Source: Trypanosoma brucei (lineage: Eukaryota). Taken from it: a DNA stretch of 64,000 bases. A program made the position numbers and the translations under genes. Within the stretch, counting starts at the first letter, position 1. The number at the start of each line of letters is the position of its first letter. The notes under the pieces are model-generated. The model was not told where the DNA came from. It saw nothing but the letters and a program-made list of their open reading frames with translations, and made no database searches. This document shows positions 25,909 through 48,565 of the stretch, piece after piece. Location of the stretch: contig CH464491.1 of the NCBI GenBank assembly GCA_000002445.1, positions 1,312,001 to 1,376,000 on the forward strand. Reading direction: 5' to 3'.

Positions 25909-27453
25909 ATGGCGAAAAAGGGTAAAAAGAATTCGGCGCCGCAGTTGGTGGCACCGGAGCCGGTGGCAGACGAGCTCGAGGTGGATATCCTGTGGGACGC
26001 CGTCAAAGAAGTAGATGATAAACCTCCTTTCATGGATGGGACACACCTGGACGCCACACGTGCGTTGTTCAAACTGGAGAAAACAGGACGCGGCGCACCG
26101 GATGTTCCGCACAATTTTTTCCAACTTCGGGAAAGAAACCTCAGCGTCGTGCGTGCCCGGGACCGTTTTGTGTTGGCTGAGCAGCGGCTGAAAGAGAGAA
26201 TGGAGGTGGACGAAGGCCTGCAGGACGATGATCAGTGTTTTCTATCACTGAAGCAAAGTGAGGGCGAAGAGTACCTGCGGGAGAGGAGAGCTGCCATGGA
26301 AAACATTGCTGGTGTTAAGTCAGCACTGGTGGAGGACCAACTCGGCTTGATTACACGTATGGAGGAGGCGGCCGAAGACTTCTTCCGAGGCTGGAATGAC
26401 TTATTAGAGGAGGTAACCGCACTCGCCACTGGGGACAGCAAAGTGAGCGCCGCGTTCGAAGAGAAACGAACTCTCACCAAAACGTTTAGGGAAGCGGAGG
26501 AACAGTATTTTCACGACCACGGGGAGCACGTTGTGGGCATCCGAGAAATGCGAAGGGAGACCAAGCGGCAGCAGGATGAAATGCTTCAGTCGATGGTAAC
26601 GCGTCTCGGGGCAGGTGTAGTGGAAATGGCAAGGTTGTCTGTGGAAGAACTAGAGGACAAGGCAGCCCAGCAAGAAGAAACAACGCGGCTTATTTCAGAA
26701 CTCATGAAGGTTCAAGGGAAGTCTACCGTGTTGGAAAAGCAGACAATTGCCATTAATGAGCACCGTGCCACGCTACAACGGTTGATAGATCTGGAGGTGC
26801 AAAAGCAGGAGTTCTGTATCCTGCGTCAGAAACAGATCGAGTCCGATTTGAAAACTCTTTCTGAAACTGTAAAGCACAACAACGAGCAGTTACTTCTCTT
26901 GTCAAGTAACGCCACTCCTTGCCAGGAATACAAAAAGCTGCTGCCGATGATCCCCACTTCTCCCAACACCATTTCCAACCTAACGAATGTGCAGGACAAG
27001 AGCCTGCTGTTGCTGACGGTGGAGGCTAAGCGGCAGCTTGAAGGGCTAGACGCTGAGCTGAAAACTCTGAAAGATGAGCTCGCTACACTTAGGAGGCGCC
27101 ACATTGTGCATCTAAGCGGCAAGTATAAACCAACAGCTACGGATGGGCCCCTAAGTGCCATGAAGAAAACTGCGGAGTTAGGTATCGAGACAACGAGCGC
27201 TATTCGGTCCGCAGTTCTAAACTCTTTGGAGCAGGTGTGCCGTTGCCTTGGATGTACGGAAGATGCAGAAGCACCTGGAGATTCTCTGGAGCGTCTTTTT
27301 TCCATAACAGATGTGGAAGAACGGAAAGCTGTACAATTGTACGTGTCGAGATGTATCAGTAAACTGTTTAGTTCGGAATGCCCTACGGCTTTGCCAGTTC
27401 CATTCCCCAGGAGTTCGAAGGGTATACAATGGGATATGTTGCCTTCACACTGA
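25909..27453 (+). CDS. Hypothetical coiled-coil protein (514 aa from first ATG, MAKKGKKNSAPQL...)
   Basis: Track ORF 25642..27453 begins at TTG; the first ATG at 25909 is preceded by a pyrimidine tract. Long heptad-rich charged sequence with many E/K/L/Q residues. Confidence 0.55.
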   Translation: MAKKGKKNSAPQLVAPEPVADELEVDILWDAVKEVDDKPPFMDGTHLDATRALFKLEKTGRGAPDVPHNFFQLRERNLSVVRARDRFVLAEQRLKERMEVDEGLQDDDQCFLSLKQSEGEEYLRERRAAMENIAGVKSALVEDQLGLITRMEEAAEDFFRGWNDLLEEVTALATGDSKVSAAFEEKRTLTKTFREAEEQYFHDHGEHVVGIREMRRETKRQQDEMLQSMVTRLGAGVVEMARLSVEELEDKAAQQEETTRLISELMKVQGKSTVLEKQTIAINEHRATLQRLIDLEVQKQEFCILRQKQIESDLKTLSETVKHNNEQLLLLSSNATPCQEYKKLLPMIPTSPNTISNLTNVQDKSLLLLTVEAKRQLEGLDAELKTLKDELATLRRRHIVHLSGKYKPTATDGPLSAMKKTAELGIETTSAIRSAVLNSLEQVCRCLGCTEDAEAPGDSLERLFSITDVEERKAVQLYVSRCISKLFSSECPTALPVPFPRSSKGIQWDMLPSH

Positions 27454-28277
27454 TACTTTGGTTGATGATACAAAAGCAAGAGTTAGCCCCGGAGTTTCCG
27501 CTATGGTGTTGTCTTTACCTTCCCATCTCCCTAGGGGGGGGGAATTTATGCTCCTTGTACACCTTCTCCTACCCCCAGTTTAGTAGAGTTCGATGGCATC
27601 AATATGACATATTAAACCGTGGGTGTAGTTAAGTGAATACCATCATTAATTGTACTATCAGATGTTAGTGTAGTGTCGGGTGTCAGTGGCAAGTGCAAGA
27701 GGAGAAGAAGGTAAATTTCTCCCGATTCGTCAAAGTCACGTTACGGCCTGTTACCGATTGGCAGAACCCTTTCGTGTTGGAAACCACACTCAACCGCTCC
27801 ATTTTAGGTGTGCTTATGTGTTTTGTCTCTTCTCTCTTTCCCATCCACACACACACGAACACAAAGGCCTAAAATAAAATCCCACTAAAAACGTTACTGC
27901 GACACTATCACTCACAAAATTCACTACTTTTAACCTTGTTTATTATTGTAATAATAATAATAAATGAATGGATTAACCCTCTACTTAGACACAAGGAGAA
28001 GTTACACATTAAAGCACAGTTAAGTTGAGGGGAAAGCGCAAGCAAAGGGATTGAAGGCGAAAGTGACTTTCCACTACGTTTTTTCAGCAGTTCATCGAAA
28101 ATCGGCAAAAAAAAGTGGGTGTATTTAAAAAAGGAAATATATACGGACGTGAATATAAGAAACATCGAAGAAATAGGAAAACAACATATTGAAAAATAAC
28201 ACAAACACATTTTGTAAAAAAAAAAAAAAGACAAACAGTAGTAGTATAGATTTACAGGGGTCTACAACGGTACTGAA

Positions 28278-29591
28278 ATGAATCGCATACTGTTTGCACT
28301 TGCCATCATCTTTTATTTACCGATTCCCCTCAGCGTCATCAAGGGGAGCTGTAAAGAAATTCCGACCCACCAGCAGCCACAGGCCCCTTACATACCAAAT
28401 ATTCAAAAGCAAACAAAAGAGGTATTGACACCATCGCAACAAGAAGATAAACAGAATTTTTCTCCAACGCTCCACAAAATAGAAAGTGCGCGGCAGTTCC
28501 ACTACGACGACTCAACAAATATCGACGGAAACAAAAGCATTCAGCATCAAACCGCAGTAACAGACGTCAATGACAATAACAGTGCCAACACTTCCAATGA
28601 GGATGAAGAGGAAGATGAAGATGAAGATGATACCGCAGTAACAGACGTCAATGACAATAACAGTGCCAACACTTCCAATGAGGATGAAGAGGAAGATGAA
28701 GATGAAGATGATACCGCAGTAACAGACGTCAATGACAATAACAGTGCCAACACTTCCAATGAGGATGAAGGGGAAGATGAAGATGAAGATGATACCGCAG
28801 TAACAGACGTCAATGACAATAACAGTGCCAACACTTCCAATGAGGATGAAGAGGAAGATGAAGATGAAGATGATACCGCAGTAACAGACGTCAATGACAA
28901 TAACAGTGCCAACACTTCCAATGAGGATGAAGAGGAAGATGAAGATGAAGATGATACCGCAGTAACAGACGTCAATGACAATAACAGTGCCAACACTTCC
29001 AATGAGGATGAAGAGGAAGATGAAGATGAAGATGATACCGCAGTAACAGACGTCAATGACAATAACAGTGCCAACACTTCCAATGAGGATGAAGGGGAAG
29101 ATGAAGATGAAGATGATACCGCAGTAACAGACGTCAATGACAATAACAGTGCCAACACTTCCAATGAGGATGAAGAGGAAGATGAGGATGAAGATGATAC
29201 CGCAGTAACAGACGTCAATGACAATAACAGTGCCAACACTTCCAATGAGGATGAAGAGGAAGATGAGGATGAAGATGATACCGCAGTAACAGACGTCAAT
29301 GACAATAACAGTGCCAACACTTCCAATGAGGATGAAGAGGAAGATGAGGATGAAGATGATACCGCAGTAACAGACGTCAATGACAATAACAGTGCCAACA
29401 CTTCCAATGAGGATGAAGGGAAAGAGGAACTGGAGTTTACCATTGCTCCTTCTCCTGTTTTTTTACCTCCTCCACCGGTAAGTGATGAAAATTCCACTCT
29501 TCTGGATGGGAATGATCTCTCCGTTGACAGGGGTAATTATTGTTCATTGCTATTTTCCTTCGTGTTTGTGTTTCTTACCTTTGTCGTCTAA
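28278..29591 (+). CDS. Secreted/GPI-type acidic tandem-repeat protein: 10.5 copies of the 27-aa unit TAVTDVNDNNSANTSNEDEEEDEDEDD
   Basis: ATG start. The N-terminal hydrophobic signal peptide is MNRILFALAIIFYLPIPLSVIKGSC. The central part is a perfect-to-near-perfect 81-bp tandem array. The C-terminal hydrophobic tail LLFSFVFVFLTFVV is typical of a GPI-anchor signal. Confidence 0.7.
   Translation: MNRILFALAIIFYLPIPLSVIKGSCKEIPTHQQPQAPYIPNIQKQTKEVLTPSQQEDKQNFSPTLHKIESARQFHYDDSTNIDGNKSIQHQTAVTDVNDNNSANTSNEDEEEDEDEDDTAVTDVNDNNSANTSNEDEEEDEDEDDTAVTDVNDNNSANTSNEDEGEDEDEDDTAVTDVNDNNSANTSNEDEEEDEDEDDTAVTDVNDNNSANTSNEDEEEDEDEDDTAVTDVNDNNSANTSNEDEEEDEDEDDTAVTDVNDNNSANTSNEDEGEDEDEDDTAVTDVNDNNSANTSNEDEEEDEDEDDTAVTDVNDNNSANTSNEDEEEDEDEDDTAVTDVNDNNSANTSNEDEEEDEDEDDTAVTDVNDNNSANTSNEDEGKEELEFTIAPSPVFLPPPPVSDENSTLLDGNDLSVDRGNYCSLLFSFVFVFLTFVV
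28551..29419 (+). repeat. 81-bp tandem repeat, 10 full copies plus one partial copy (coding repeats of the acidic protein)
   Basis: The unit accgcagtaacagacgtcaatgacaataacagtgccaacacttccaatgaggatgaagaggaagatgaagatgaagatgat recurs head-to-tail. Only a->g (E/G) and gaagat/gaggat variants distinguish copies. Confidence 0.95.
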
Positions 29592-29697
29592 CGTTTTATT
29601 TTGCTTTCTTAAACCTTAAATATACTTTTCGATTGTAGTTTTAGTGTTGTTTGGTTATATTCTTTTACATAAAAGATTTTGTTCATTTTATTTTTCA

Positions 29698-30023
29698 CCT
29701 TAGCAGTGAATCTACGAAGTCCTCTTTCGCACATTCCACTGATGTGAACCACACCCTCTCGCACATAATTAGTTATTGATTTAATACTGCATATAAATCT
29801 ATTTTATATTTTTTAAATATTTACTGATGCTTTCTACCAGCCTTGAGGCGCATGCAGTCGCCCAAAAATAAGTGGACATCGCAGTAGATTTATTGTGGAG
29901 TGATATCAATAAGCTTGCGCGTGTGTATATGAGACCCGTTTCCTCTCTTCTTTTTAGTGGTGCTCCTATTTTCCTTGTTTTGGTGTTTGTTTTTTCGTGT
30001 GTGTGTGTGTGATGCTGTTGCAT
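29698..30023 (+). repeat. Copy 1 of a ~330-bp low-copy direct repeat (contains a (GT)n microsatellite)
   Basis: Near-identical to 31445..31784. It begins ccttagcagtgaatctacgaagtcctctttcgcacattccactgatgtgaaccacaccctctcgcacataattagttattg and ends ...gtgtgtgtgatgctgttgcat. Confidence 0.9.
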
Positions 30024-30240
30024 GTACGACGCCGCATATTATCCGTATTTTTTAGTTCGGTTTTTGCTCCTGTAGTTTTAATGGTATCGTAACGCTCTGT
30101 ATACATATTCCAAGTTATTCATGCTTATTAATTAAATTGTGTATCGTTTCTTTTTTTTAAAAAAAACCCTTTGTTCTTCTTGACGTTAGGCATATTATTG
30201 TTATAGTAGGGTATAGCCTTTACATTTTCGTCGTGTTAAA

Positions 30241-31059
30241 ATGTTTATCAGTGGGCTGTTCGTGTTGGCCGTGGCTCTGTGCTGCACGAACCCCACAGAT
30301 GGTTGCGACAGCAACTTCACATTGGCTCAAGTGCTGACGCTGTGTCAAATAACAGAACAGCTGAGGGGACTGAAGGAAGTTGTTATGAAAATTGGACCGC
30401 GAGCTGTTGAGGAAGCATTGTTTACTTTGAAGGCGAAGAAACGTAGTGAAGTATCTTTGAGGCGGGCAGAGGAGGCGGCGGAACGGGACCGCAACGCAGG
30501 TTTTGCGGCGGAACGGGCAAGGCTGGCGTATGATAGCGTTTGTGAGGCCGTTGAGTTTGCTGAGTATGCGGCGACAAGCATCGAGGGACGAGCGAGTTCC
30601 CTCCTAGTTATTCAGGAATATTATGTGCCATTCCTGGAAGATGTGATGCTCAGGGTTGGGACGGATGCGGAAGCTGCGGAAGCCCAAGAAGCCGCCATGT
30701 CATGTCTACAAACAAAAAGAAGTGTTTCACCAACGTCACTAAGTGAAGCGGCCTTGGAACTCCGGGTGAGATTAGGGGTCAGAAACTTTAGAGCGTTGAG
30801 GCGCGATCTCCACCGAGCGGCGTTTTGTCTCTATTCGTTGAAAAAGACGGCCGCGAAGATTGCGCTGGCCAGAAGTTCAGTAGAGGAAATAGAGTACCTC
30901 ATAAACGAAGCAGCAAATGAAGCAGAGTGCGTGTCTCCCCCCAAGGGAGGCATACAGGGACAGTTGCCATCGGATGAAAGTGATTCTTCAAATTTGGTCA
31001 CTGTGATTTCGGCCGTCCCGATATGTTGGTTATTGGCCACCATTACGCGTGTTTTGTAA
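30241..31059 (+). CDS. Ala/Glu-rich putative GPI-anchored surface protein (272 aa); GARP/BARP-like composition
   Basis: ATG start. Cleavable signal peptide MFISGLFVLAVALCCTNPTDGCDS. The mature region is Ala/Glu/Arg-rich and helical (RRAEEAAERDRNAGFAAERARLAYDSVCEAVEFAEYAATSIEG). The C-terminal hydrophobic tail AVPICWLLATITRVL is GPI-signal-like. Confidence 0.6.
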   Translation: MFISGLFVLAVALCCTNPTDGCDSNFTLAQVLTLCQITEQLRGLKEVVMKIGPRAVEEALFTLKAKKRSEVSLRRAEEAAERDRNAGFAAERARLAYDSVCEAVEFAEYAATSIEGRASSLLVIQEYYVPFLEDVMLRVGTDAEAAEAQEAAMSCLQTKRSVSPTSLSEAALELRVRLGVRNFRALRRDLHRAAFCLYSLKKTAAKIALARSSVEEIEYLINEAANEAECVSPPKGGIQGQLPSDESDSSNLVTVISAVPICWLLATITRVL

Positions 31060-31444
31060 CGATATGCCCTCACACGCATGCAGAGGGAATAAATCTGCAG
31101 GCGTAGCACCGTCCATGGTGCAGCGACTTGAGTATAAATGAAGTATGAGCGTGTTGTTTTACGTGCGTAACTTTATGTGAAAAATGTGCACGTGGGGCTG
31201 AGGCATGAATGCACGCATGTTTGCCTCGCGTTCACGCAGTAATGATAGTTTTCGACGTGTGTTGACGACACATTGCCCCTTACCTCCTTTTTTATTTTTT
31301 ATTTCACTTGTTAGCGTCATTACATTCGCAAAAACAGATGTGCAAAGTGTTTTTCATGTAAAATCTGTCTGCCTCCCCTTTACTGCCGTAGATACTGCAC
31401 GCTGTGCAATCGTGTTAACACGTGTATGTTCATTTAATTGCTCC

Positions 31445-31784
31445 CCTTAGCAGTGAATCTACGAAGTCCTCTTTCGCACATTCCACTGATGTGAACCACA
31501 CCCTCTCGCACATAATTAGTTATTGATTTAATACTGCATATAAATCTATTTTATATATATTTTAAATATTTACTGATGCTTTCTACCAGCCTTGAGGCGC
31601 ATGCAGTCGCCCAAAAATAAGTGGACATCGCAGTAGATTTATTGTGGAGTGATATCAATAAGCTTGCGCGTGTGTATATGAGACCCGTTTCCTCTCTTCT
31701 TTTTAGTGGTGCTCCTATTTTCCTTGTTTTGGTGTTTGTTTCTTCGTGTGTGTGTGTGTGTGTGTGTGTGTGATGCTGTTGCAT
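31445..31784 (+). repeat. Copy 2 of the ~330-bp direct repeat (longer (GT)n)
   Basis: Aligns base-for-base with 29698..30023 apart from tatattttt/tatatatattt, ttttt/tttct and the (GT) tract length. Sequences diverge immediately after gatgctgttgcat. Confidence 0.9.
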
Positions 31785-33036
31785 TTACTTGTGCCACCAC
31801 AAACTCCCCAGGCTTTTTTAACACTTATTTATTATAACTGTACCGTAAGGAAGGGGATATGGGCCCGCTGTGAAGCTGGTGCAAATGAGTTGGTTGGAAT
31901 GTAACAACGGATGGTCGGGGGAGGGGGCATATTGGATCCCTTCCTGGTCATCGCCAGCACAAACATCCGCCGAAACACCGCGGAAGAGCCATTGCTGAGG
32001 TAAATTAATCGGCGTGAGAAATGTCGTGGCTGCCAATGGGGCTCCATTGGTTTAAGAAGAAAAAAGAAAACACGGAGCGTCAGCTTCACAGAGCACTGTA
32101 AACAAACGCCTTAACCACCACCGGATCCCATGTTACGCTGCATCCATGCATTCTCAAGTGCTGGATGCGTTTGCGTTTGTATTTGTATGTGTGCGCTTCT
32201 CCTTGAAACAGTAAATATTTTACGCATTACATTTGACATTACGCATATTCCCTTTTCATATTCATTGAAAAAAGTGATGACAATATCTTTTATGCAAATA
32301 ATAATGAAATTCCACAACTATCGCTACCGCTTCAGTATTTTTCTTTCTCGTAACTGTTTCAACCTATTTTGTCATTGTATCCAAAAATATACATCACACG
32401 ATTCAGTACCACATCTTACAACATTTAATAGCATCTTCCTGCTTCCGGTTGCCGTTGTTCCCATTCACATTAATTTTATTCACAAACACTTACAAGCACC
32501 TTAACTTCTCTGTTGAAACATTCCCAATACAAAATGTTGTTTCCTTTTCATAAAAATAAAAATTATCAAGGGAAAACATAATAAGGGGTTAAAGTTATGA
32601 AATCAACTATTAATATATGATATAAACGATGGCTCAGTGTTTCCATCAACACGCGTATTCCTGCGACAAATGCTTTCCATATGTAATGTTAATCATCCTG
32701 AGCTTAATAATGGCAAAAAAAATAAATAAAATTAATCAATTCTGGCACAATGGTACGCACTCATTAGTTGTTTATGCTGATTGCACCTCAACTTTGATTC
32801 GGAGTGCACAACTCCATTGGCGTCAGGTTGGGCTGAAAGGACATTTACGACAACTTTTCCTTTCCGTATATTCCGTAACCTCTGTTTTATCATTATTATT
32901 CGTTATTCGTCACTTCTCTTGCCTCGTGCGCAGCTGGTGGAGGTGTGGCACCATTCAGCTCCGCAAAACGTGCAACAGTTAATGCCTTAACAATATTAAC
33001 GTCAAATTTGACGAGGTATTGTTTGACATCATTTTT

Positions 33037-35340
33037 CTAAAACACTTCAACATGCCTGTGGTTTTCATCATCTGCTTTACCATCTGTGAGATCACATCGC
33101 TGCTTGACTCTCATTGGAGTGGCGTCAGGGTGCTGAACATAAATCATTTCCCATCGATACTTCCCCATAACTGCTTTCCAATATTCATCACTTGGATTAG
33201 TGGTTGGATTTAAAAGTTTCTTCAGCATGCCAAGGAATGTTCCTGTCTTCGTATCATGCGATTCAGCAGTTGTGTACTGCAACATCACTATTGTCTTTTG
33301 TTTTCTCTGTTGTTTTTTATCCTCAGCAATTGCATCAGGGTCAACAACAAAGAAGGCATCCAAAACAGGGAAGTTAGGAAGCGCCTAGTATGCCTGAAAG
33401 AGACTTGGGGAACGTGTTATCATGCCACAACCGTCTGTAAAATCGGCAGCGTTGCCAAAGTTCAGGTATCTCTTCTGTACATGCCTCAAGACAGTGATAT
33501 TCTGCGCAACTTCCTGTTCCTCTACTCCCCTTTCGGGAAGTGGCTTGGTCATTTCGGTGATCGTACTCAACACTTTGGGAAATCCAAGTGCTTTTATAGC
33601 ATTGTACTCAAATAAAGCTGGAATTATCTCACGGGTAGGAATAAGCCCCGCCAACTGAGCTAAATTTTGAGCGGTTATTTCAGTTTCTCAATTATTCTCT
33701 TCTTTATGGATTCAGAGTGAGGTACGCATATGTATATCTCACCATTGTTTCTCCCACAGGCACGAACAATCTTCACGAGTTTGTGAGACGCGTCACTTTC
33801 CTTCCATTCGCCTTTGTTACCCACCACGCCAATATAGAGTTCACGTCGCTCATGGGATTTGATGGAATTTATTTCTTTGTCTATGTCGACCTCACGCGTG
33901 ACATACTTTGCTTCATCAAACACATAACGAAGTGAAGGTCCGACAAACTCCACACGGCTCTCATGCATCTCCCACTTTTCCCTCAACCCGACAGGTGTGG
34001 CTCCAGGATACAGCATGGGTCCAATACGTGAGAAGAAAGCCCGCATTTCAGTCATTTCCCAGCAGTTAACAAAGATACGTGTACATCTTTCCCTTTGCTG
34101 GAACCAGCTGTCAAAATTTCTCAAATTGGGTGAACTGATCAAAATGCTTCCCCATTTTGGAGCCACATCTGCCGGTGGCTGCTCGCCTTTGTTGACGAAG
34201 TCATAAATAACATAACCACGTGTATTAGATGATATAACCTTCATAAACGTTATAGCCGCTTCTTTACTGTACTCCCTAACTCTGCCAACGCCACCACCAC
34301 CAGATTTCTCAAATATATATGCGGCTACACCACGGAAGTACGCAACAACAGGCAACTCTTCCGCATCATAATGCAGTAAGTTGTAGAGTATGAAAGAACC
34401 CAAATTCTGAGATTTACCAATCCCAGGATTACCAATGGCAACGTATGATCGTGGAAAATAAAGACATCCCGGTAAAGCACGCTGTGTACGCCATAATTCA
34501 ACTCCACTCCTTACAACTTTCCATACGCGGAGCTCTTCTCTACGGGTGAATATTCTTTTGTTACTTCCGTCGGTAAACTTGGCTTATTATCACCCCATTT
34601 GAGATGTTAGAACCATTGCTTCAACTTCTTCCCTGCGTTCTGGTTTCTTCTCAACAGCTTCCTCAATTTCAGGGACAACATTAAGTTCTTCATCCTTCCA
34701 CATTACATTGCCACCACGCGTTCCATCAACAAACTCCATCCCGAGCAGTTGAGTTCCATTGTCAATTTCAATATGACTCCATTTCGCATTATAAACAGAG
34801 TCGTAAACTCCTGGAAGGTCAGCACCGTCAGCTAGTTAAATATATCGTTCCCCCGCCTTCCTGGCAATGCACCGTACCGTGTCCAACCTTGATGTCGCTG
34901 CGGAGCCAACTTGTTTCCTCATTTGGGCAGTTGCCTTCTCGCCCCACTGCCGCAGGGAGTAAATTCCATTACCGTTTAGATAGTTTATCCAACCTTGTAT
35001 TTCAGGCAACTGCTCACATATCCTTTATCGCTTAAACTGGAGGAGATTCTCTATGTCTTCAAGTAACTCGGCATCCCTAGTGTACCTTCCTGGGTTGGTA
35101 ACACACAAACTCATTGCTACATTCTTCATGTTGTTCGTGTTCAGAAAGAATTGCATCAGAAATTCGTGCAGGCTCATTTTAGCCAACGCCGCATAGTCTT
35201 CCAGAAGCACATCCTCAACCCTACTTTCCATCGTCCAGTTGGTGTCCCCTTCATTTCTCCACCACTTCTTTCTTTTTTTTCCTTGTACGGTCCCTTGGTC
35301 GTCCTTCCGAATTCACCCCACTTACGTTTCGTTCATACAT
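33037..35340 (-). pseudogene. RHS: Retrotransposon hot spot (RHS)-like pseudogene, fragmented by frameshifts/stops
   Basis: A series of minus-strand ORF fragments with coding character sits in different frames (35025..35231, 33675..34403, 33385..33654, 33037..33363). Walker-A P-loop reads AIGNPGIGKSQNLGSFIL across 34390-34450. The N-terminal basic stretch followed by NWTMESRVEDVLLEDYAALA resembles the RHS N-terminus as I recall it. It sits next to an ingi/L1Tc element. Confidence 0.55.
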
Positions 35341-36148
35341 GAAAAAGAGGTATCCGACACTGGCGGTTCAGGTTATCCATTGTGCTTTTCCACTAAATTA
35401 CACAGGATAAGATAGGGTGATGGTACATATTTGCTGAAGTGTAGTGATATCCATGCGCACACCCCGCGCTATCTTTGCAGGGGGTGCATCATATTCGGGC
35501 TTCGCCGCTCAGTGCAGGCACTTGGTGCCGTGGCCAGTTTTTGGTTGACCCGAAAATGGTTGTTGATGCAGCGCCGCATTAAAGTTTCTCCTTTGCTATG
35601 TGGCTGGATGGTGCGGCATCAGGAAAGCGTGCGGGCACGAGCGCCAGCACCAATGAGTTACGCAAGTCAGGTTACGCGCACTGGCTTATTTACCCCTAGC
35701 ATAAAAGTGTGGCGTGACAGAGTTACTAGTGAAAGCGACGATTTGCACCATATCTTGTAAATAGGCGATGGCCTGCGTATCTCAGAGGTGTGAAATGACT
35801 TCTATTCATGGATGTGCTGGTGGCCGCAAGCGTTGAAGCAACCTACTTCTACAGCTCTCATTCTTGTCCTACTCAAAAGACAGGACACCATCCGCTCATC
35901 GTCGAAGGCGTGGTGGAGTACGTCGCTTCCCTCGATCGTTTGTTCTTCGGTGGTGCCAGGGTCCAGTACCCCGTATCATCGGGGGAAGCCAAGAGCTACC
36001 AGTGTTACTCTCTTTTGGAACACTGCTTTGCTTAGACTACGGCATCGTACAGCACAGGGATCAGCAGCGTCTTGCTGGGACACCGTTTTTCGTTTGTCGG
36101 TCCCTGGGCACGTGCCAGCGTGCCATCAGCAGTATCATCCGCACTAAG

Positions 36149-39100
36149 ATGCTGCTGTCCGGTGATGTGGAAGAGAATCCCGGCCCATCATTGCGCGGGG
36201 TGCAGTGGAACTCCGCCGGGCTATCTCAAGGAAAGAGATTAGCACTCCACAAAACCCTTGTTGATGAGCGGATCGCCTTTTGTCTGTTGAGCGAGACAAG
36301 GATGAAACCTGGAGAGGCGGCTTGCTTTAGCGTTGCTGGCTACCAACATTACGGAATAGCTCGTAACTGCAAAGGAGGTCGTGTATCAATACTAGTGAGG
36401 GCGGACCTGCCAGTCGAGACCGGTATGGCCGTTGTTGGTCGCATTGAACAAGTGCATGCAACAATTCACCTTGCACGTGGAGCAGCGCTGACTGTCACGT
36501 CGGCATACATCCCACCAAAACACACCTTCACGGCAACTGACCTAGATACGCTTCTGACGACTGACGGTGCCCAGATCATCGGTGCAGACGCTAACGCACA
36601 CGCGTTGGCATGGGATCGCGCGAGCCCACCAAATACCAAGGGTGAAACCCTCACACAGTGGTGCATTGACAACCAGTTTCTGGTCTGCAACACTGGTGAG
36701 TGCACCAGGTACGCGCGCCACCAAGGGAAGTCCACCCCTGATGTGACACTGTCAAGGAATTGCACAGTGTACACGTGGACATCGCTGTATTCTCCCGATA
36801 GCGATCACCATCACATATTTTTCGACGTTATGGTTGGAGACGACACAGATGCACTGAGTTGCCCGCGGCTTCGAAAGCCCATGTGCGCATGGCTAAAAGC
36901 TGACTGGAGGAATTTCCGTCTCAAGGTTGACGAGTTCTGCAGGAAAATTGGTAGAGAGAAGAACGTCAACACCCTGGAACAGAAATTGAGCTCCGCCATC
37001 CGCATTGCGATGAAGGTCTCCGTCCCCCGTGGCTGCAGAGCAACGCCACCACATTGGACACCTGAGCTCGCGAAACTCGATGAAGAGATCACTGGATGCG
37101 GACCCTCCCACCGAAGGGAAAAGTTGGTAGCCACGCGTAAGCAGATCCTGGACCGTACCACAAAGAAGAGATGGAGCACACTATGCTCCAGACTTGCGGT
37201 GTCAGACCGCTGCAGTTGGCACATTGTCAAGAAGGTATATGCGCCACGACCACTAACCACACAGGCTGTACTTGTAGATAACGCGGCCATCACGGACTAC
37301 CGTCGAGCTGAGAGGTTCAATAAACTGTACTCGTCCCGCGCAAGAAGGCACCCCGACTCACACCCACCGGCACCAATAAAGACGATAGCGAGTGAGTTCA
37401 GTCCAATCACGATGGCTGAACTACGGAGATCGATCAAACTGCTACCGTGTGGATCCGCAGCCGGACCTGATTGCTTATACAACGAGGCGCTACAACATCT
37501 CGGTATAACAGCGCTGAATGTTGTTCTGAGGCTATTCAATGAGAGCCTACGAACGGGAGTCGTGCCACCTGCATGGAAGACTGGTGTTATCATCCCCATC
37601 CTGAAGGCCGGAAAAAAGGAGGAGGACCTCGATTCTTACAGGCCTGTGACGCCCACGAGCTGTCTCTGCAAAGTCATGGAACGCATAATTGCCGCAAGGT
37701 TTAGAGACACTGTTGAGTCCCAGCTGACGCCGCAGAAATCAGGCTTTCGCCCCGGATGCTCAACGCTCGAACAGCTGCTGCACGTCCGCGCTGCCCTCTG
37801 CCGTCCCACGCACCAATCACGTACGGGTGTTGTATTCGTCGACTACGAGAAGGCATTCGTTACTGTAGACCACGACAAAATTGCGAGGGAAATGCACAGA
37901 ATGAAGGTATCACCCCACATTGTGAAGTGGTGCGTATCATTTCTGAGTAACCGAACTGGCAGAGTGAGATTCAAGGAGAAGCTTTCCAGAAGCAGAACAT
38001 TTGAGCGAAGAGTGCCACAGGGAACTGCCCTTGGCCCAATCATGTTCATTATTGTCATGAACTCGTTGAGCCAGCGCCTTGCAGAAGTGCCGTTACTGCA
38101 GCACGGATTCTTTGCAGACGACCTAACGCTACTTGCGAGCCACACAGAGAGGGATGTCATCAACCACACACTACAATGCGGCCTAAACGTGGTGTTACAG
38201 TTGTCAAAAGACTACTTCATGTCTGTCAACGTAGCGAAAACAAAGTGCACACTCTTCGGGTGTATAGAGCGCCACCCCCTTACATTACAACTGGACGGCG
38301 AAAGAATAGGAGCTGACAGAACACCGAAGCTTTTAGGAGTAACATTCCAGTGTCTGCAAGGGATGGCAACACATGCGGCCGAAACGAGACGCAAGATGGA
38401 CTTCAGACTACTGCAGATAGCAGCCATCTCAGCTTCTACATGGGTACCAAGACGACAAGTGCTGAGAACTTTTTATCTAGCGCTCGTACAGGCACACACC
38501 ATGTATGGCATTGAGGTATGGTACTGGGACGCTTCGGAACGAAGTCGCGACCTCCTTGCATCAGCACAACACAAAGCCAGTCGCATCATAGCCGGCATAC
38601 CGCATGGGACGCGCAAAGAGGACTCTCTGCTGGAAGCAAACCTCCTGCCACTCAAGACGACCACTCTTGTGCGCAGCATGAAATTCATGCTGATGTGTGA
38701 GTCACGAGGCGGATGTTTGCGGCGCAGTGCTGAGGAAGTATACCACAGCAAACACCCAGTCAGAGTCTTACATTCCCGCATCATGCGGTCTTATCCCCAC
38801 CTCCGCATTGAGCCACGCGAGCACCCACTAGAGACATCGACGCTCCGCCACAGCTGCCGACCGCTATTTCACACGCAGATAAAGCCTGTGTGCGCTGATG
38901 ACCCTGACGATGTCAAAAGGGAGGCTTCCGAAAAGTGGATTGAACGGCATTTTGTACGGAGGGGGAAGGAGCTACCGCGGCGAGAGCACTACGAATTGTG
39001 GACTGATGGATCCGTGTCCCTCGGTGAGAAGTCCGGAGCAGCTGCCCTGCTCTATAGAAACAACACGCTGATTTGCGCACCCAAAACTGGAGCAGGGGAA

Positions 39101-39223
39101 CTCTCATGCAGTTACAGAGCGGAATGCGTAGCATTAGAGATAGGACTGCAACGGCTGCTGAAATGGCTTCCGGCATACAGAAGCACACCGAGCAGGTTGT
39201 CCATCTTCTCTGACTCGCTGTAA
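36149..39223 (+). CDS. Retroelement ORF segment: 2A peptide + AP endonuclease + reverse transcriptase + N-terminal half of RNase H (ends at in-frame TAA)
   Basis: The ATG at 36149 encodes MLLSGDVEENPGP. The track ORF 35864..39223 is the same frame read through flanking DNA. The stop TAA at 39221-39223 is in frame with the next segment. Confidence 0.85.
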   Translation: MLLSGDVEENPGPSLRGVQWNSAGLSQGKRLALHKTLVDERIAFCLLSETRMKPGEAACFSVAGYQHYGIARNCKGGRVSILVRADLPVETGMAVVGRIEQVHATIHLARGAALTVTSAYIPPKHTFTATDLDTLLTTDGAQIIGADANAHALAWDRASPPNTKGETLTQWCIDNQFLVCNTGECTRYARHQGKSTPDVTLSRNCTVYTWTSLYSPDSDHHHIFFDVMVGDDTDALSCPRLRKPMCAWLKADWRNFRLKVDEFCRKIGREKNVNTLEQKLSSAIRIAMKVSVPRGCRATPPHWTPELAKLDEEITGCGPSHRREKLVATRKQILDRTTKKRWSTLCSRLAVSDRCSWHIVKKVYAPRPLTTQAVLVDNAAITDYRRAERFNKLYSSRARRHPDSHPPAPIKTIASEFSPITMAELRRSIKLLPCGSAAGPDCLYNEALQHLGITALNVVLRLFNESLRTGVVPPAWKTGVIIPILKAGKKEEDLDSYRPVTPTSCLCKVMERIIAARFRDTVESQLTPQKSGFRPGCSTLEQLLHVRAALCRPTHQSRTGVVFVDYEKAFVTVDHDKIAREMHRMKVSPHIVKWCVSFLSNRTGRVRFKEKLSRSRTFERRVPQGTALGPIMFIIVMNSLSQRLAEVPLLQHGFFADDLTLLASHTERDVINHTLQCGLNVVLQLSKDYFMSVNVAKTKCTLFGCIERHPLTLQLDGERIGADRTPKLLGVTFQCLQGMATHAAETRRKMDFRLLQIAAISASTWVPRRQVLRTFYLALVQAHTMYGIEVWYWDASERSRDLLASAQHKASRIIAGIPHGTRKEDSLLEANLLPLKTTTLVRSMKFMLMCESRGGCLRRSAEEVYHSKHPVRVLHSRIMRSYPHLRIEPREHPLETSTLRHSCRPLFHTQIKPVCADDPDDVKREASEKWIERHFVRRGKELPRREHYELWTDGSVSLGEKSGAAALLYRNNTLICAPKTGAGELSCSYRAECVALEIGLQRLLKWLPAYRSTPSRLSIFSDSL

Positions 39224-39679
39224 ATGTTAACAGCACTGCAGACAGGCCCCCTAGCCGTAACGGACCCAATTCTGAGACGACTATGGAGGCTTCTGCTTCA
39301 AGTTCAGAGAAGGAAGGTGCGTATCCGACTGCAATTTGTGTTTGGCCATTGTGGCGTGAAACCGAATGAGGTTTGTGACGAAATGGCCAAAAAGGCCGCA
39401 GATTTACCACAGTTGCGAGACACATGGATCCCCGACATCATTGCTTATGCGAAGCGAGTGCTTAGGTCGGAAGAAGTCCATGAGAACACTCATAGGTTTG
39501 GTATCACGGGCAACCACTTTCCAACAAAACATAGGGAAGAACTGACGAGGGAAGAAGAAACGGCACTGGCACGCTTTCGGGTTGGGTCTTCAAGACACTA
39601 TGGATGGATGTTGCGAAAGATCAACCCGAGTGTAGTGTACCCTCACAGTGCCGATGGTGTAACCCGCAACATGCAGTGA
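39224..39679 (+). CDS. Retroelement ORF segment: C-terminal half of RNase H (same frame as upstream segment, separated only by a TAA nonsense codon)
   Basis: 39224 and 35864 are in the same reading frame. Contains the RNase H C-terminal motif HCGVKPNEVCDEMAKKAADL. Confidence 0.8.
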   Translation: MLTALQTGPLAVTDPILRRLWRLLLQVQRRKVRIRLQFVFGHCGVKPNEVCDEMAKKAADLPQLRDTWIPDIIAYAKRVLRSEEVHENTHRFGITGNHFPTKHREELTREEETALARFRVGSSRHYGWMLRKINPSVVYPHSADGVTRNMQ

Positions 39680-39806
39680 TAGGACCAACAATACAAACAC
39701 AAACAGCCTACCTGTTGCGACACGCACTCTTCAGAGAACCTCCGAACCGACCAAATGTACGGAGTGTGATGCCACATACCAATGCCGCTCGAGTGCTGTA
39801 ACGCAC

Positions 39807-40916
39807 ATGGTAAACAAACATGGCTTTGTGCGAGCTGATGCCCTCCGGAGGATCAAATACGGCGATGCAACACCCGCAGTGGATATCCCCCCGGAGCCCC
39901 CTCCAGTGGTGGCGATCGTTCCTCTACCATCGAGCACACGAGTCCCGATGAGACCGCAGGTGTTTCATTGTACCCTCTGTGCCTCCAAATTCGCAGTGCA
40001 AGGCCGACTATTACACCACCTTAGAACAATACATGGCATAGGCAGCGGTAGTTACCGCGTGAAAAGGGAGCGAGAGAACGAGGACTCAGTGCAAGGAGAT
40101 GGTAGAGCCCCAGCAGCGCCAGCCTCTCAGGATACACGGAAGCTGCCGTTTCAATGTGACCTGTGCGAGGCGAGCTTCGGTACACGCTCTTCCCTGTCAC
40201 TACACAAGAAATTCAAACATAAGAGCATAGTGACGGAGGACGGTACCGTGGTGGTGGTGCAATTCCCTCGTAAGCGTGCCCGTGAGGGAAACGTTGACGT
40301 CCCGGGGAAGGGCGAGGTGCAGTGCGGTGTGTGCCAAAAAGTGCTCAGTTGCAGGGACTCCCTCATCCGACACTGTAAGGCTTTCCACAAAGGTGAGGGA
40401 GTCGAGCTTAAATGCAGCAAAAGCACAAAATTGTGTTCCACGGATTCCCCGCATACAAATGCATCCATGTTGGTGTGCCCGACATGCGGAAGGCAGTGTG
40501 CTAGCAAAACTGGCCTCACCCTACATCAAAAGAAGATGTACGGTATGAAGGTAGAGCGCGCTGTTACCAGCCAACGCGGCGACTGCGAAGAAACGTCGCT
40601 GTACCTGATGAGCTGGCCCGGTTTGAAGGAGTTACGTGTCAGGTTTGCGGTAGAAGGTGTATGTGTGCAGGATGTATGCTTCTCCAAAAGGCTGGCGCAG
40701 TTTCTCATTGCGGTTGAACGGAGCCGGCCGCAGGTGAAGTCCTCACCTAAGGTAACAGTCATACAACCCACTCTCCCTTCTGCAACTTTCCCCCTTATTG
40801 CCGAGTGTGGAGCTTGCAGGAAAGGCACTGGACGCAGGAATAGTCCAGAAACCCTCAGAGACAGAGGGGGTATGCAGTCAACAAGCAACAGAAACAGAAA
40901 GAGGGGGAGAGAATAA
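39807..40916 (+). CDS. Retroelement ORF segment: C2H2 zinc-finger nucleic-acid-binding domain (frameshifted relative to RT/RNase H)
   Basis: Several C2H2 units: CTLCASKFAVQGRLLHHLRTIHG, CDLCEASFGTRSSLSLHKKFKH, CGVCQKVLSCRDSLIRHCKAFH, CPTCGRQCASKTGLTLHQKKMYG. The frame differs from 39224..39679. Confidence 0.8.
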   Translation: MVNKHGFVRADALRRIKYGDATPAVDIPPEPPPVVAIVPLPSSTRVPMRPQVFHCTLCASKFAVQGRLLHHLRTIHGIGSGSYRVKRERENEDSVQGDGRAPAAPASQDTRKLPFQCDLCEASFGTRSSLSLHKKFKHKSIVTEDGTVVVVQFPRKRAREGNVDVPGKGEVQCGVCQKVLSCRDSLIRHCKAFHKGEGVELKCSKSTKLCSTDSPHTNASMLVCPTCGRQCASKTGLTLHQKKMYGMKVERAVTSQRGDCEETSLYLMSWPGLKELRVRFAVEGVCVQDVCFSKRLAQFLIAVERSRPQVKSSPKVTVIQPTLPSATFPLIAECGACRKGTGRRNSPETLRDRGGMQSTSNRNRKRGRE

Positions 40917-41985
40917 TAAACGAATAACAAAAATCAAAACAAAAGGATTGCTAATTGACATCTTTTGGAGAGTCTGGGGTGGGGGGCTTCTCGCCCCATC
41001 TGCTGTATTCCGTTCAAATGCGGAGCTACAAAAAAAAATTATAGAGGGTGTGTTAGGATGAATAAAAAAGGGAGACTCTGCCACAGTCGCCAGACCGATA
41101 GCATCTCAGGGCTCTACGGTGATGGCTGACGGCCGTGCCAGTGGGGGGAAACTCTCCCGAAGGCACGAAGAAAATTTCAAAAAAAAAACTTGCTGTTTCG
41201 ACCAAATGAACTTTGCAGCGACATCCAGAGTGGTGACCGTTGATGCAATCACTGCCCGGAGCTGACATTGCCGGCTACCCATCTCGTGGCCTCCGGGTGC
41301 GGTGCATATGGTGATAGGACTCGGTCGATCGCTTGATTTTTAGTTGGTACGGGGTCGGCTCCGCTGCATGGTGCTGCGCGTATAGAGTTGCTCACGGTGG
41401 AGCCGTTGTTCCTCTTGCGTTGCTGATGGTGACATTTTTCGACCTTTATATTGATGGGTGAAACGATAAGACGAAAAAAAGGTGTTTGTAGCGATTGTAG
41501 TGGTGGCGCTTCTTTTTCCCCCCTATTTTTAACGGGTGTCTAATACATAGTCACTGTTTATGCTACGCTGCACTACTCTCTTCGTGCGGGCGTGAGGCAA
41601 CGTTAAGTTTCTGCTACATATGTATCGCATAGACTGATTAACAAGCTTATCATAACCTATTTATCCCTCCGTTAGAGACTTTCCTATAACGAGGCGTGAT
41701 GTTTCTATATTCTTCATGGCTCTGCAATCACCCTGTGCTATTTTTGCCCCAGATTTGCTAATGCTCACTTCTGGGAAGTATATTCCCCTCGTGGACGACT
41801 CAAATATTTCAAGAGCTGAGGGACACGGTGCTTCAACCCCTGTAACCCTCTTTACCGCTGCGCATATTTATTAATTTAGGATTTCGAGGAGCCCTTGATG
41901 TGGTATGGTATGTGTCCTTGATGTGACTGTTATTCTCATTACATCTTTATTTTCCATGTGTGTCGCAAGAATATAGGTAAAGAAA

Positions 41986-43323: not shown

Positions 43324-43878
43324 CAGTCAGCTTTTGCTAATCTTAATTTGTTTAACTGAGATACTTACGTTTACACCTAAGCGGGAGAGCGAACTGACAC
43401 ACAGTTTACTACTTTTTTCTGAACTTGTTAACTATCGCTCGATTTTCGTTAGCATTCACCATTTGTTTTACTCGTATTTTAACGTGGAATCCTCTAATGA
43501 AATTACGGAAACGAACGACTTTATCTTTTCCTGCTTATGGACATTTACCACCTTACTCTTCCTCTCTATTTTTTGCTTTGCGTTCCTCTGTTCGTGGAAG
43601 GTGGTTACTTGATGCTTTACCCTCATAATTATATCTGTACGACTACAAAATTTTTGTTCACCATTAGCAAGCATAGCCGTTGCCTGTTTCTACAAAAAAA
43701 AAACAACAAGCGACAGGGTAAGTGAATGTATAGATTAAGCGGGATATTTATGTGAAAGTCTACTAGAGGAAAGCCGTTCAAAAGTCCAACTTCCCCCCAC
43801 ATAGGACATTTTAGTTGTGCTGAGAGGTGTACCTGCTAACTCGTGCGCTCGTGCGGGACTACAACGTGATCAAGGCAG

Positions 43879-48465: not shown

Positions 48466-48565
48466 TCGAGTGGCAGGATGAAAACGTTTTCCAATTATTC
48501 AGGTCGTGTGTTGGTGCAGTGGTTGGGTCTGGGTAAAATACTGTGTCCTTATCACTGAGGTAGTG

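What the first reader, a model, noticed from the sequence alone, without database searches (positions are those of the whole stretch)
27500..41300. About 14 kb AT-rich accessory island interrupting a conserved housekeeping gene cluster
Flanking regions encode conserved core genes (RPL17, SURF1, POLIB-type polymerase, PGFS, CALM, cap methyltransferase). The interval instead contains only fast-evolving or mobile content: a repeat-containing secreted protein, an Ala/Glu-rich GPI-type surface protein bracketed by direct repeats, a ~1.2 kb AT-rich ORF-free stretch (31.8-33.0 kb), an RHS pseudogene and a LINE. Base composition drops visibly to long A/T runs and there are few long ORFs. This looks like a lineage-specific insertion or synteny break inside a polycistron.
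Basis: inference. Interest (0 to 1): 0.55.

Follow-up and report, generated by a model that had tools for sequence, protein, structure and literature searches.

The report
Gene-poor seam between two synteny blocks
This 14.5-kb gene-poor stretch of Trypanosoma brucei chromosome 11 is the place where two anciently separate blocks of conserved genes were joined, and it is filled with two lineage-restricted surface-protein genes plus dead mobile-element debris, a pattern that is already annotated and well described for trypanosome genomes.

Summary
The listed elements are all present at about the stated coordinates. They are a GPI-type acidic-repeat protein (Tb11.02.2360), a Fam50/GARP surface-protein gene (Tb11.02.2370) bracketed by 350-nt direct repeats, a near full-length RHS pseudogene on the minus strand (Tb927.11.4770), and a 5.1-kb defective ingi LINE.

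"AT-rich" holds only in part. The non-LINE part has GC 0.43, like ordinary intergenic DNA in the window (0.44). The ingi is GC-richer (0.53) than the flanks, and A/T runs are not enriched.

The flanks are not one cluster interrupted by an insertion. The left block (POLIB to PFC12) and the right block (PDK, CALM, RPL17) lie on different contigs or chromosomes in T. vivax, T. cruzi and T. theileri. In L. donovani, PDK is the first gene at the end of a chromosome-scale record.

T. congolense already has Fam50-i, then 8 kb of LINE debris, then PDK on one contig. The join is therefore older than the brucei/congolense split. T. b. gambiense and T. b. equiperdum share the island's left 9-10 kb, up to their locus ends inside the ingi, and differ mainly in repeat number.

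Verdict: a real, ordinary, already annotated synteny-break region. Low interest.

The parts
25909..27453 (+). Left boundary gene: paraflagellar rod component PFC12 (Tb11.02.2350 / Tb927.11.4740). It is the last gene of the conserved POLIB-to-PFC12 block.
   Evidence: It is 99% identical to P0037. The block POLIB, AKR, three further genes, PFC12 is conserved in T. vivax, T. cruzi and T. theileri.
28278..29591 (+). Intact gene for a 437-aa acidic-repeat protein with a signal peptide and a GPI-type tail (Tb11.02.2360). The 81-nt array of 10.9 copies lies at 28551-29429.
   Evidence: PMC2254594 lists Tb11.02.2360 as GPI-anchored with 11 x TAVTDVNDNNSANTSNEDE. There is no Pfam hit. Copy number is about 21 in gambiense, with a broken reading frame, and 3.8 in equiperdum.
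29680..30027 (.). Upstream copy of the roughly 350-nt direct repeat that brackets the Fam50 gene. It ends in a (GT)n / T-rich tract.
   Evidence: 96-98% identity to 31427-31788. Both copies are also present in gambiense and equiperdum.
30241..31059 (+). Intact Fam50 subfamily 'i' (GARP/BARP-like) surface-protein gene, Tb11.02.2370 / Tb927.11.4760.
   Evidence: Pfam PF16731 at E 1.6e-56. It clusters at 90% identity or more with EAN79440 / Tb11.02.2370. It is 99% identical in gambiense and equiperdum. The T. congolense orthologue P0048 is 42% identical. PMC3605285 describes the locus.
31427..31788 (.). Downstream copy of the direct repeat.
31789..33036 (.). Non-coding spacer (GC about 0.40) with no detectable homology to anything.
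   Evidence: No protein or DNA similarity to the window, to the loci, or to Fam50. No tRNA or Rfam hit. Composition.
33037..35330 (-). Near full-length RHS (retrotransposon hot spot) pseudogene, Tb927.11.4770, antisense to the surrounding genes.
   Evidence: PF07999 at 3e-54, PF20445 at 8e-15 and PF24466 at 9e-10 on the conceptual translation. At least 5 in-frame stops plus a frameshift. GC skew turns negative here.
35439..35918 (-). Degenerate LINE (DIRE-like) endonuclease fragment, lying head-to-head against the ingi 5' end.
   Evidence: tblastn gives 30% identity to ingi ORF aa 128-309, E 5e-13, with several stops. The window lacks 73 bp at 35811 that gambiense and equiperdum have.
35929..41039 (+). 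ingi-type non-LTR retrotransposon of 5.1 kb. It is defective: one in-frame stop at 39221-39223 and a frameshift between 39679 and 39807. It has an A9 tail and no target-site duplication.
   Evidence: Domains are Exo_endo_phos_2, RVT_1, RNase_H and C2H2 zinc fingers. A DVEENPGP 2A-like motif and a Pr77-like 5' end are visible. No shared word of 9 nt or more flanks the element. The 5' junction is shared with gambiense and equiperdum.
41040..41985 (.). Spacer upstream of PDK with no homology found.
41986..43323 (+). Right boundary gene: pyruvate dehydrogenase (lipoamide) kinase-like protein. It is the first gene of the conserved PDK-CALM-RPL17 block.
   Evidence: PF10436 at 3e-30. 100% identical to P0001. 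The block is conserved in six other species.

Best explanation
The interval is the junction between two ancestral synteny blocks on T. brucei chromosome 11. The left block is POLIB, PGFS and onward to PFC12. The right block is PDK, CALM, RPL17 and onward.

In the outgroups examined, the PDK block starts at or near a chromosome end, or at a divergent strand switch beside species-specific surface-gene families. In the common ancestor of T. brucei and T. congolense it came to lie head-to-tail behind the PFC12 block.

The seam is not under the constraint that keeps core polycistrons compact, and it has accumulated two kinds of content:
- (a) African-trypanosome-restricted surface-protein genes. 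Fam50-i is retained as a single copy in T. congolense. A brucei-group GPI-type acidic-repeat gene has a copy number that varies between strains.
- (b) Decaying elements of the kind otherwise typical of T. brucei subtelomeres. These are an antisense RHS pseudogene, a DIRE fragment and a defective ingi with no target-site duplication.

SHOWN: the identity of the parts; separation of the blocks in four other species; the Fam50-i to PDK linkage in T. congolense; collinearity of the left 9-10 kb of the island in two other T. brucei-group genomes.

INFERRED: the direction of change (a join in the brucei/congolense lineage rather than repeated splits elsewhere), and the idea that the RHS and LINE debris is a relic of a former chromosome-end or strand-switch environment.
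For: - Right block is conserved, and nothing from the left block lies within 8-10 kb upstream of PDK, in T. congolense, T. vivax, T. cruzi, T. theileri and L. donovani.
- Left block is conserved, and a different gene follows PFC12 in each species. T. vivax has a nucleoside transporter and then convergent genes. T. cruzi has amino-acid and nodulin-like transporters. T. theileri has hydrolases.
- The two blocks lie on different records in T. vivax (SOPI01000403 and SOPI01000598), T. cruzi (CM026649 and CM026644) and T. theileri (NBCO01000030 and NBCO01000043).
- In L. donovani, PDK is 3.2 kb from the start of an 877-kb record.
- In T. cruzi, a DGF-1 gene on the opposite strand lies upstream of PDK, about 50 kb from the chromosome end.
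- In T. theileri, GP63 genes and a LINE relic lie upstream of PDK.
- T. congolense contig L001 starts with the 3' end of the Fam50-i orthologue and carries PDK 8.1 kb downstream, with a minus-strand LINE relic between them. T. congolense PFC12 and Fam50-i have consecutive accessions, CCC95079 and CCC95080.
- T. b. gambiense and T. b. equiperdum are collinear with the window from 15.9 kb into the ingi.
- Literature: larger T. brucei chromosomes are thought to have arisen by fusion of smaller ancestral ones (PMC4612428). RHS sequences interrupt synteny at interstitial sites (PMC7563717). From my own knowledge, El-Sayed et al. 2005 reported that retroelements and gene-family expansion accompany syntenic discontinuities.
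Against: - Polarity rests on parsimony over a few species.
- Only 10 kb on each side of each gene could be fetched, so a more distant linkage of the two blocks within one chromosome cannot be excluded where records differ only by assembly.
- In the older T. vivax Y486 annotation, PFC12 (CCC52998) and PDK (CCC53002) are only four accessions apart. From my own knowledge that assembly was ordered against T. brucei, but this conflicts with the long-read assembly.
- PFC12 to Fam50-i adjacency in T. congolense rests on accession order, not on a contig I could read.
- The right junction (ingi 3' end to PDK) could not be checked in another T. brucei assembly.
- The L. donovani record shows no telomere repeats, so "chromosome end" means the assembled end.
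Confidence: 0.8

Rival explanations
1. This is a recent, lineage-specific insertion of a mobile island into a gene cluster that is otherwise contiguous.
For: The ingi, the RHS pseudogene and the repeat-protein gene have no counterpart at the T. congolense locus. An ingi is a mobile element.
Against: The flanks are not contiguous in any outgroup. Fam50-i and a long LINE-bearing spacer already lie upstream of PDK in T. congolense. The left part of the island, including the ingi 5' junction, is shared by three T. brucei-group genomes at 96% identity. The ingi has no target-site duplication and is defective, so it is not a fresh insertion.
Confidence: 0.05
2. The seam still works as a boundary between transcription units. 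RNA polymerase II terminates after the surface-protein genes or at the antisense RHS pseudogene, and restarts upstream of PDK. The Fam50-i and repeat genes would then sit at the attenuated end of a polycistron. The boundary might also host a replication origin. This reading is compatible with the best explanation and adds function to it.
For: PDK is the first gene of its transcription unit in T. cruzi and T. theileri (opposite-strand genes upstream) and in L. donovani (record end). In T. vivax, PFC12 is followed by a transporter and then a convergent strand switch. GC skew reverses at 32-36 kb. Retroelements accumulate where polycistronic transcription starts (abstract of PMC4748587). A third of T. 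brucei origins lie at fusion or fission sites relative to L. major (PMC4612428).
Against: There is no direct evidence. The window has no tRNA or other RNA gene of the kind that often marks internal boundaries. The skew reversal is explained simply by the antisense pseudogene. Tb927.11.4760 and Tb927.11.4790 both have substantial read counts in procyclic RNA-seq tables, which does not suggest strong attenuation.
Confidence: 0.25
3. This is foreign or horizontally acquired AT-rich DNA.
For: GC dips locally to 0.34-0.40 in parts of 27.5-33 kb.
Against: Every identifiable part belongs to a native trypanosome family: Fam50/GARP, RHS, ingi. The composition equals that of local intergenic DNA.
Confidence: 0.01
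4. This is a centromeric or ex-centromeric domain. T. brucei centromeres lie between gene clusters, next to ingi or DIRE elements and AT-rich repeat arrays. A T. cruzi centromere is reported to correspond to a synteny break on T. brucei chromosome 11.
For: Obado et al. 2007 (PMC1868937) link the T. cruzi chromosome 1 centromere to a chromosome 11 synteny break. The chromosome 11 centromere was missing from the 927 v5 assembly (PMC3978658). An ingi and a DIRE fragment are present here.
Against: The window has no AT-rich tandem array. The only tandem repeat is the coding 81-mer. There are no Ns. The T. cruzi strand switch upstream of PDK is about 4 kb, not GC-rich, and borders DGF-1, unlike the described 11-kb GC-rich retroelement domain. 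Both flanks are on the same strand.
Confidence: 0.03
5. This is an assembly artefact: two unrelated regions were joined through a repeated ingi.
For: The ingi is a multicopy repeat without a target-site duplication. I could not retrieve the right junction from another T. brucei assembly.
Against: A single T. congolense contig independently links Fam50-i to PDK. Gene numbering in TREU927, DAL972 and T. equiperdum runs straight across the interval.
Confidence: 0.02

Closest known systems
Non-syntenic chromosome-internal regions at synteny-block junctions in trypanosomatid genomes (El-Sayed et al. 2005 and Ghedin et al. 2004, from my own knowledge; echoed in PMC7563717 and PMC4612428)
   Same: It is a break between conserved polycistronic blocks. 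It is occupied by species-restricted surface-protein genes, an RHS pseudogene and ingi/DIRE retroelements. One block edge corresponds to a Leishmania chromosome end.
   Different: Nothing essential differs. This seam is head-to-tail (both blocks on the same strand) rather than a strand switch. It is small (14.5 kb) and carries only single-copy surface genes, not an expanded array.
Fam50 (BARP/GARP/CESP/MISP) surface glycoprotein family, subfamily 'i' (Jackson et al. 2013, PMC3605285)
   Same: The 272-aa gene is the published Tb11.02.2370 single-copy chromosome 11 locus, with T. congolense orthologue TcIL3000.11.4860. It has a strong GARP Pfam hit, a signal peptide and a GPI-type tail.
   Different: It is single-copy, not a tandem array like BARP or MISP. 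It is flanked by 350-nt direct repeats that look like the footprint of a collapsed duplication. Its expression stage and function have not been characterised.
RHS pseudogene and ingi/RIME associations in T. brucei (Bringaud et al. 2002, from my own knowledge; summarised in PMC7563717)
   Same: An RHS pseudogene lies next to ingi-type retroelements.
   Different: In the classic case the retroelement sits inside the RHS coding sequence at the hot spot, in the same orientation, with RHS halves on both sides. Here the RHS reading frame is uninterrupted by any element. The ingi lies about 600 bp beyond its 5' end in the opposite orientation, and no RHS sequence was found beyond the ingi.
T. brucei centromeric domains (Obado et al. 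2007, PMC1868937)
   Same: It is a region between gene blocks with ingi/DIRE elements at a synteny break.
   Different: There is no AT-rich tandem array, and the flanking blocks are co-directional.

Membership tests
Synteny-break / non-syntenic internal region | The flanking gene blocks are each conserved across species but are not adjacent to each other in other species. | tested here: met
   The blocks are conserved in T. vivax, T. cruzi and T. theileri but lie on different records. In L. donovani, PDK is at the record end.
Synteny-break / non-syntenic internal region | The content is species- or clade-restricted genes, retroelements, or both. | tested here: met
   Fam50-i has relatives only in African trypanosomes. 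The repeat gene was found only in T. brucei-group loci. RHS and ingi were identified.
Lineage-specific insertion into a contiguous cluster | An empty site, with the flanking genes adjacent, exists in relatives. | tested here: not met
   No species examined has PFC12 next to PDK. T. congolense has Fam50-i plus 8 kb of spacer before PDK.
ingi / L1Tc-clade non-LTR retrotransposon | APE endonuclease, then reverse transcriptase, then RNase H, then C2H2 zinc finger, in one element of about 5.2 kb. | tested here: met
   The order of domains along 35864-40916 is correct, and the element is about 5.1 kb.
ingi / L1Tc-clade non-LTR retrotransposon | Conserved 77-79-nt 5' hallmark (Pr77) and a 3' poly(A). 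| tested here: inconclusive
   The 5' end CCCTCGATCG...GGTGCCAGGGTCCAGTACCCCGTATCATCGGGGGAAGCCAAGAGC resembles L1Tc Pr77. The primer sequence CCCTGGCTGAG appears in PMC1874656; the rest is from memory. The A9 tail is at 41030-41038. No reference ingi was available to align against.
ingi / L1Tc-clade non-LTR retrotransposon | A target-site duplication of about 12 bp flanks the element. | tested here: not met
   No shared word of 9 nt or more lies in register at the two ends. This is consistent with an old copy or one that has recombined.
RHS (retrotransposon hot spot) family | RHS_N plus the RHSP P-loop domain architecture. | tested here: met
   PF20445 at 8e-15 and PF07999 at 3e-54, plus DUF7578. 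It is annotated as an RHS pseudogene, Tb927.11.4770.
RHS (retrotransposon hot spot) family | A retroelement is inserted within the RHS coding sequence at the hot spot. | tested here: not met
   The conceptual ORF is continuous from 35330 to 33037. The LINE sequences lie outside it.
Fam50 / GARP surface glycoprotein family | GARP domain (a fold solved for family members, PDB entries 6xz6 and 5vtl), an N-terminal signal peptide and a C-terminal GPI-type hydrophobic tail. | tested here: met
   PF16731 at E 1.6e-56. There are weak direct hits to solved GARP-domain and MISP chains, 6xz6 at E 0.033 and 5vtl at 0.63. The signal peptide and tail were judged by eye. The fold itself was not predicted.
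T. brucei centromere | A single AT-rich tandem array (units of about 147 bp or 30 bp) of several kb. | tested here: not met
   TRF over the whole window finds only the coding 81-mer.
Transcription-unit boundary (TSS/TTS) | H2A.Z/H4K10ac or H3.V/base J enrichment, and a discontinuity in nascent RNA. | not testable with these tools
   This needs the published ChIP-seq and run-on tracks. Only indirect comparative hints are available.

The most novel reading that the evidence does not exclude
The seam is a fossil chromosome end or strand-switch region that still acts as a head-to-tail transcription-unit boundary, and possibly as a replication origin. On this reading, Fam50-i and the hypervariable acidic-repeat surface gene sit at the attenuated tail of a polycistron, and that chromatin position, rather than only their UTRs, sets their stage-specific expression in the tsetse.
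Probability: 0.15. Interest if true: 0.4.

Novelty: already known. Interest (0 to 1): 0.15.

Why it matters
It matters little beyond bookkeeping. The genes, the RHS pseudogene and the retroelement are already annotated in T. brucei TREU927. The Fam50-i locus and the repeat protein have appeared in published surveys. The link between retroelements, RHS, surface-gene families and synteny breaks has been textbook knowledge for trypanosomatids since 2004-2005.

The locus is a clean, compact example of such a seam. One block edge matches a Leishmania chromosome end and a T. cruzi core/DGF-1 boundary. The join predates the brucei/congolense split. It could serve as a small test case for whether ancestral transcription-unit boundaries survive chromosome fusion.

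Tried and rejected
- Exact look-ups of the window's PDK and Fam50 proteins, and of the PDK cluster representative P0001, in the contig index found nothing. I therefore could not fetch the right junction from another T. brucei assembly.
- I looked for a second, decayed Fam50 copy after the downstream direct repeat (31.8-33.0 kb). There was no tblastn signal even at E<1.
- I looked for RHS 5' sequence or the missing 5' part of the DIRE beyond the ingi 3' end (41040-41990). Nothing credible turned up.
- I looked for a target-site duplication around the ingi. None of 9 nt or more was found.
- I looked for non-coding conservation between the T. brucei and T. congolense spacers. There was none.
- No tRNA, Rfam family or tandem array was found in the window, so there is no sign of an RNA-gene cluster or a centromere.
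- I tried to learn from Obado 2007 which chromosome 11 synteny break matches the T. cruzi chromosome 1 centromere. The flanking genes are not named in the held text. The T. cruzi PDK-upstream region does not look like the described domain.
- I searched RNA-seq supplements for hints about boundary chromatin. They gave only gene names and read counts.
- One Pfam call failed because the translations contained stop codons.
- The phage, plasmid, E. coli and prokaryote collections were not used, because they are irrelevant to a trypanosome locus.

Full report
WHAT THE WINDOW IS

The window is Trypanosoma brucei-group chromosome 11.
- The PDK-like protein at 41986-43323 is 100% identical to a cluster representative (P0001) whose listed accessions include T. 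b. brucei TREU927 EAN79441 and T. equiperdum.
- The coiled-coil protein at 25909-27453 is 99% identical to the paraflagellar rod component PFC12, Tb11.02.2350 / Tb927.11.4740.
- The 272-aa protein at 30241-31059 is 99% identical to its cluster representative, and that cluster includes TREU927 Tb11.02.2370.
- The 11-copy repeat count matches what was published for Tb11.02.2360.
- Supplementary tables give the current names: Tb927.11.4700 PGFS.4740 PFC12.4760 hypothetical.4770 "RHS pseudogene" and .4790 hypothetical.
- Every part of the finding is therefore already annotated.

CHECK OF THE OBSERVATION: THE ELEMENTS

- 28278-29591 encodes a 437-aa protein with a signal-peptide-like start and a hydrophobic tail. 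It contains 10.9 copies of an 81-nt unit and has no Pfam hit. A 2007 survey listed it as a predicted GPI-anchored protein with 11 perfect repeats (PMC2254594).
- 30241-31059 encodes a GARP-domain protein (PF16731, E 1.6e-56).
- That gene is bracketed by direct repeats of about 350 nt, 29680-30027 and 31427-31788, which are 96-98% identical.
- The RHS pseudogene is larger than one ORF suggests. Its conceptual translation runs from 35330 down to 33037 on the minus strand. It is 740 aa with DUF7578, RHS_N and RHSP domains, at least five in-frame stops and a frameshift.
- The LINE is an ingi-type element at about 35929-41039. It carries endonuclease, reverse transcriptase, RNase H and C2H2 finger domains, a DVEENPGP motif, a Pr77-like 5' end and an A9 tail. 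It is broken by one in-frame stop and one frameshift.
- No target-site duplication was detectable.

CHECK OF THE OBSERVATION: COMPOSITION

The composition claim holds only in part.
- The interval 27500-41300 has GC 0.468, against 0.484 for the whole window.
- Its non-LINE part has GC 0.429. That is the same as flank non-coding DNA (0.444) and other long intergenic gaps in the window (0.415, 0.435).
- The ingi has GC 0.529, above flank coding sequence (0.513).
- Long A/T runs are less frequent here than in the flanks.
- What really sets the interval apart is coding density: 15% intact coding, against 66% in the flanks.
- The dip in GC follows from that, and it says nothing about origin.

SYNTENY: THE DECISIVE TEST

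I fetched the loci encoding PDK orthologues in T. congolense, T. vivax, T. cruzi (three assemblies), T. theileri and L. donovani. I also fetched the loci encoding PFC12 orthologues in T. b. gambiense, T. b. equiperdum, T. vivax, T. cruzi and T. theileri.

The right block (PDK, ANTH/CALM, a 174-aa protein, RPL17 and the next two genes) is conserved in most of these. The T. congolense contig ends within CALM, and T. vivax diverges after CALM. No left-block gene lies within the 8-10 kb upstream of PDK in any of them.

The left block (POLIB, aldo-keto reductase, three further genes, PFC12) is conserved in all, but what follows PFC12 differs every time.
- T. vivax: a nucleoside transporter, then a convergent strand switch.
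- T. cruzi: amino-acid and nodulin-like transporters.
- T. theileri: hydrolases.

In T. vivax (long-read assembly), T. cruzi and T. theileri the two blocks are on different contigs or chromosomes.

What lies upstream of PDK also differs by species.
- L. donovani: the start of an 877-kb chromosome record, 3.2 kb away. No telomere repeats are assembled there.
- T. cruzi: a DGF-1 gene on the opposite strand, about 50 kb from the chromosome end.
- T. theileri: two GP63 genes and LINE relics on the opposite strand.

The flanks are therefore two separate conserved blocks, and the interval is the seam between them. It is not an insertion into one block.

AGE OF THE SEAM

The T. congolense contig carrying PDK begins with the last 96 codons of the Fam50-i orthologue. 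These match P0048 / CCC95080 exactly. PDK lies 8.1 kb further on the same strand, and the spacer holds a minus-strand degenerate LINE with endonuclease, RNase H-like and zinc-finger remnants.

T. congolense PFC12 and Fam50-i have consecutive accessions (CCC95079 and CCC95080). Jackson et al. 2013 describe Tb11.02.2370 / TcIL3000.11.4860 as a conserved single-copy chromosome 11 locus, sister to BARP/GARP (PMC3605285).

The join, the Fam50-i gene and a retroelement-bearing spacer therefore predate the brucei/congolense split. There is a caveat: the older T. congolense and T. vivax pseudochromosomes were ordered against T. brucei (my own knowledge). A 2026 de novo T. congolense assembly reports extensive rearrangement relative to T. 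brucei (PMC13547854). Only the Fam50-i to PDK link is physically shown here.

Within the T. brucei group, gambiense DAL972 and equiperdum are collinear with the window from 15.9 kb to their locus ends, which lie inside the ingi.
- Identity is 98.6-98.9% across the left flank and the start of the repeat-protein gene, and about 96% across the rest of the island.
- There is a 73-bp indel at 35811.
- Repeat arrays are very different: about 21 mixed 81/63-nt units with a broken reading frame in gambiense, and 3.8 units in equiperdum.
- Fam50-i is intact and 99% identical in all three.

MECHANISM

The best-supported account is as follows. The PDK block was terminal, or bordered a subtelomere-like or strand-switch compartment, in the ancestor. 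It became internal behind the PFC12 block in the brucei/congolense lineage. This fits the general view that the large T. brucei chromosomes arose by fusion of smaller ones (PMC4612428).

The seam has since behaved like other non-syntenic internal regions. It houses clade-restricted surface genes and collects RHS and ingi/DIRE debris (PMC7563717; El-Sayed 2005 and Ghedin 2004 from my own knowledge).

Three features point to turnover by recombination rather than a single insertion event:
- the head-to-head DIRE and ingi;
- the missing target-site duplication;
- the 350-nt direct repeats around Fam50-i.

These last points are inference.

RIVALS

- A recent insertion into a contiguous cluster is refuted by the synteny data.
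- Foreign DNA is refuted by content and composition.
- A centromere is unlikely. The window has no AT-rich array, although Obado et al. 2007 link an unnamed chromosome 11 synteny break to a T. cruzi centromere.
- An assembly artefact is unlikely, given the T. congolense contig and the continuous gene numbering in three annotations.
- One reading is open and compatible with the best explanation: the seam may still be a head-to-tail transcription-unit boundary or a replication origin. PDK heads its unit in the outgroups and PFC12 is near a unit end in T. vivax. I could not test this, and the tRNA and Rfam searches were negative.

VERDICT

This is a real feature, correctly spotted. It is an ordinary and already annotated synteny-break region of a kind described two decades ago. 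Interest is low.

Noticed in passing
window 35439-35918 (minus strand): A degenerate LINE endonuclease fragment (30% identical to ingi ORF aa 128-309, with several stops) abuts the ingi 5' end head-to-head. The window lacks 73 bp at 35811 that T. b. gambiense and T. b. equiperdum have.
   Followed up: partly
window 28551-29429; L009 12692-14417; L010 12646-12953: The 81-nt coding repeat of Tb11.02.2360 is hypervariable. It has 10.9 copies here, about 21 mixed 81/63-nt units with a disrupted reading frame in the T. b. gambiense DAL972 assembly, and 3.8 copies (an intact 248-aa protein) in T. b. equiperdum.
   Followed up: yes
window 43324-46986 and 48466-50006: T. cruzi and T. theileri have a 588-aa gene between PDK and CALM, and a CutC gene after CALM. 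Neither has any tblastn match in the window, so both appear to be lost from this stretch of T. brucei. That leaves a 3.7-kb gene-poor gap holding only a 200-aa ORF, which is probably Tb927.11.4790.
   Followed up: partly
L002 19052-21337 (T. vivax): A large GARP-domain (Fam50) gene (PF16731, E 5e-7) lies 7.7 kb downstream of PDK, after CALM. RPL17 and its neighbours are missing from that stretch of the T. vivax locus. So T. vivax also has a Fam50 gene linked to the PDK block, but on the other side.
   Followed up: partly
L004 1-6015 (T. cruzi); L007 1-7927 (T. theileri): The DNA upstream of PDK carries a different species-specific surface family in each species, on the opposite strand. T. cruzi has DGF-1. 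T. theileri has two GP63 genes plus ingi-like LINE relics.
   Followed up: yes
window 10472-13454: This is a 3-kb gene-free, AT-rich gap (GC 0.415) inside the conserved left flank, between the kinesin and SURF1 genes. It is as AT-rich as the island's non-coding DNA. Its content was not examined.
   Followed up: no
T. vivax accessions CCC52998 (PFC12) and CCC53002 (PDK), against L011 and L002: The older T. vivax Y486 annotation numbers PFC12 and PDK only four genes apart. A long-read assembly places them on separate contigs of 2.9 Mb and 449 kb. This is probably an effect of reference-guided scaffolding, but it is unresolved.
   Followed up: no
window 60875-61702: An enkurin-domain (calmodulin-binding) ORF overlaps minus-strand ORFs of 289 and 175 aa.
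   Followed up: partly
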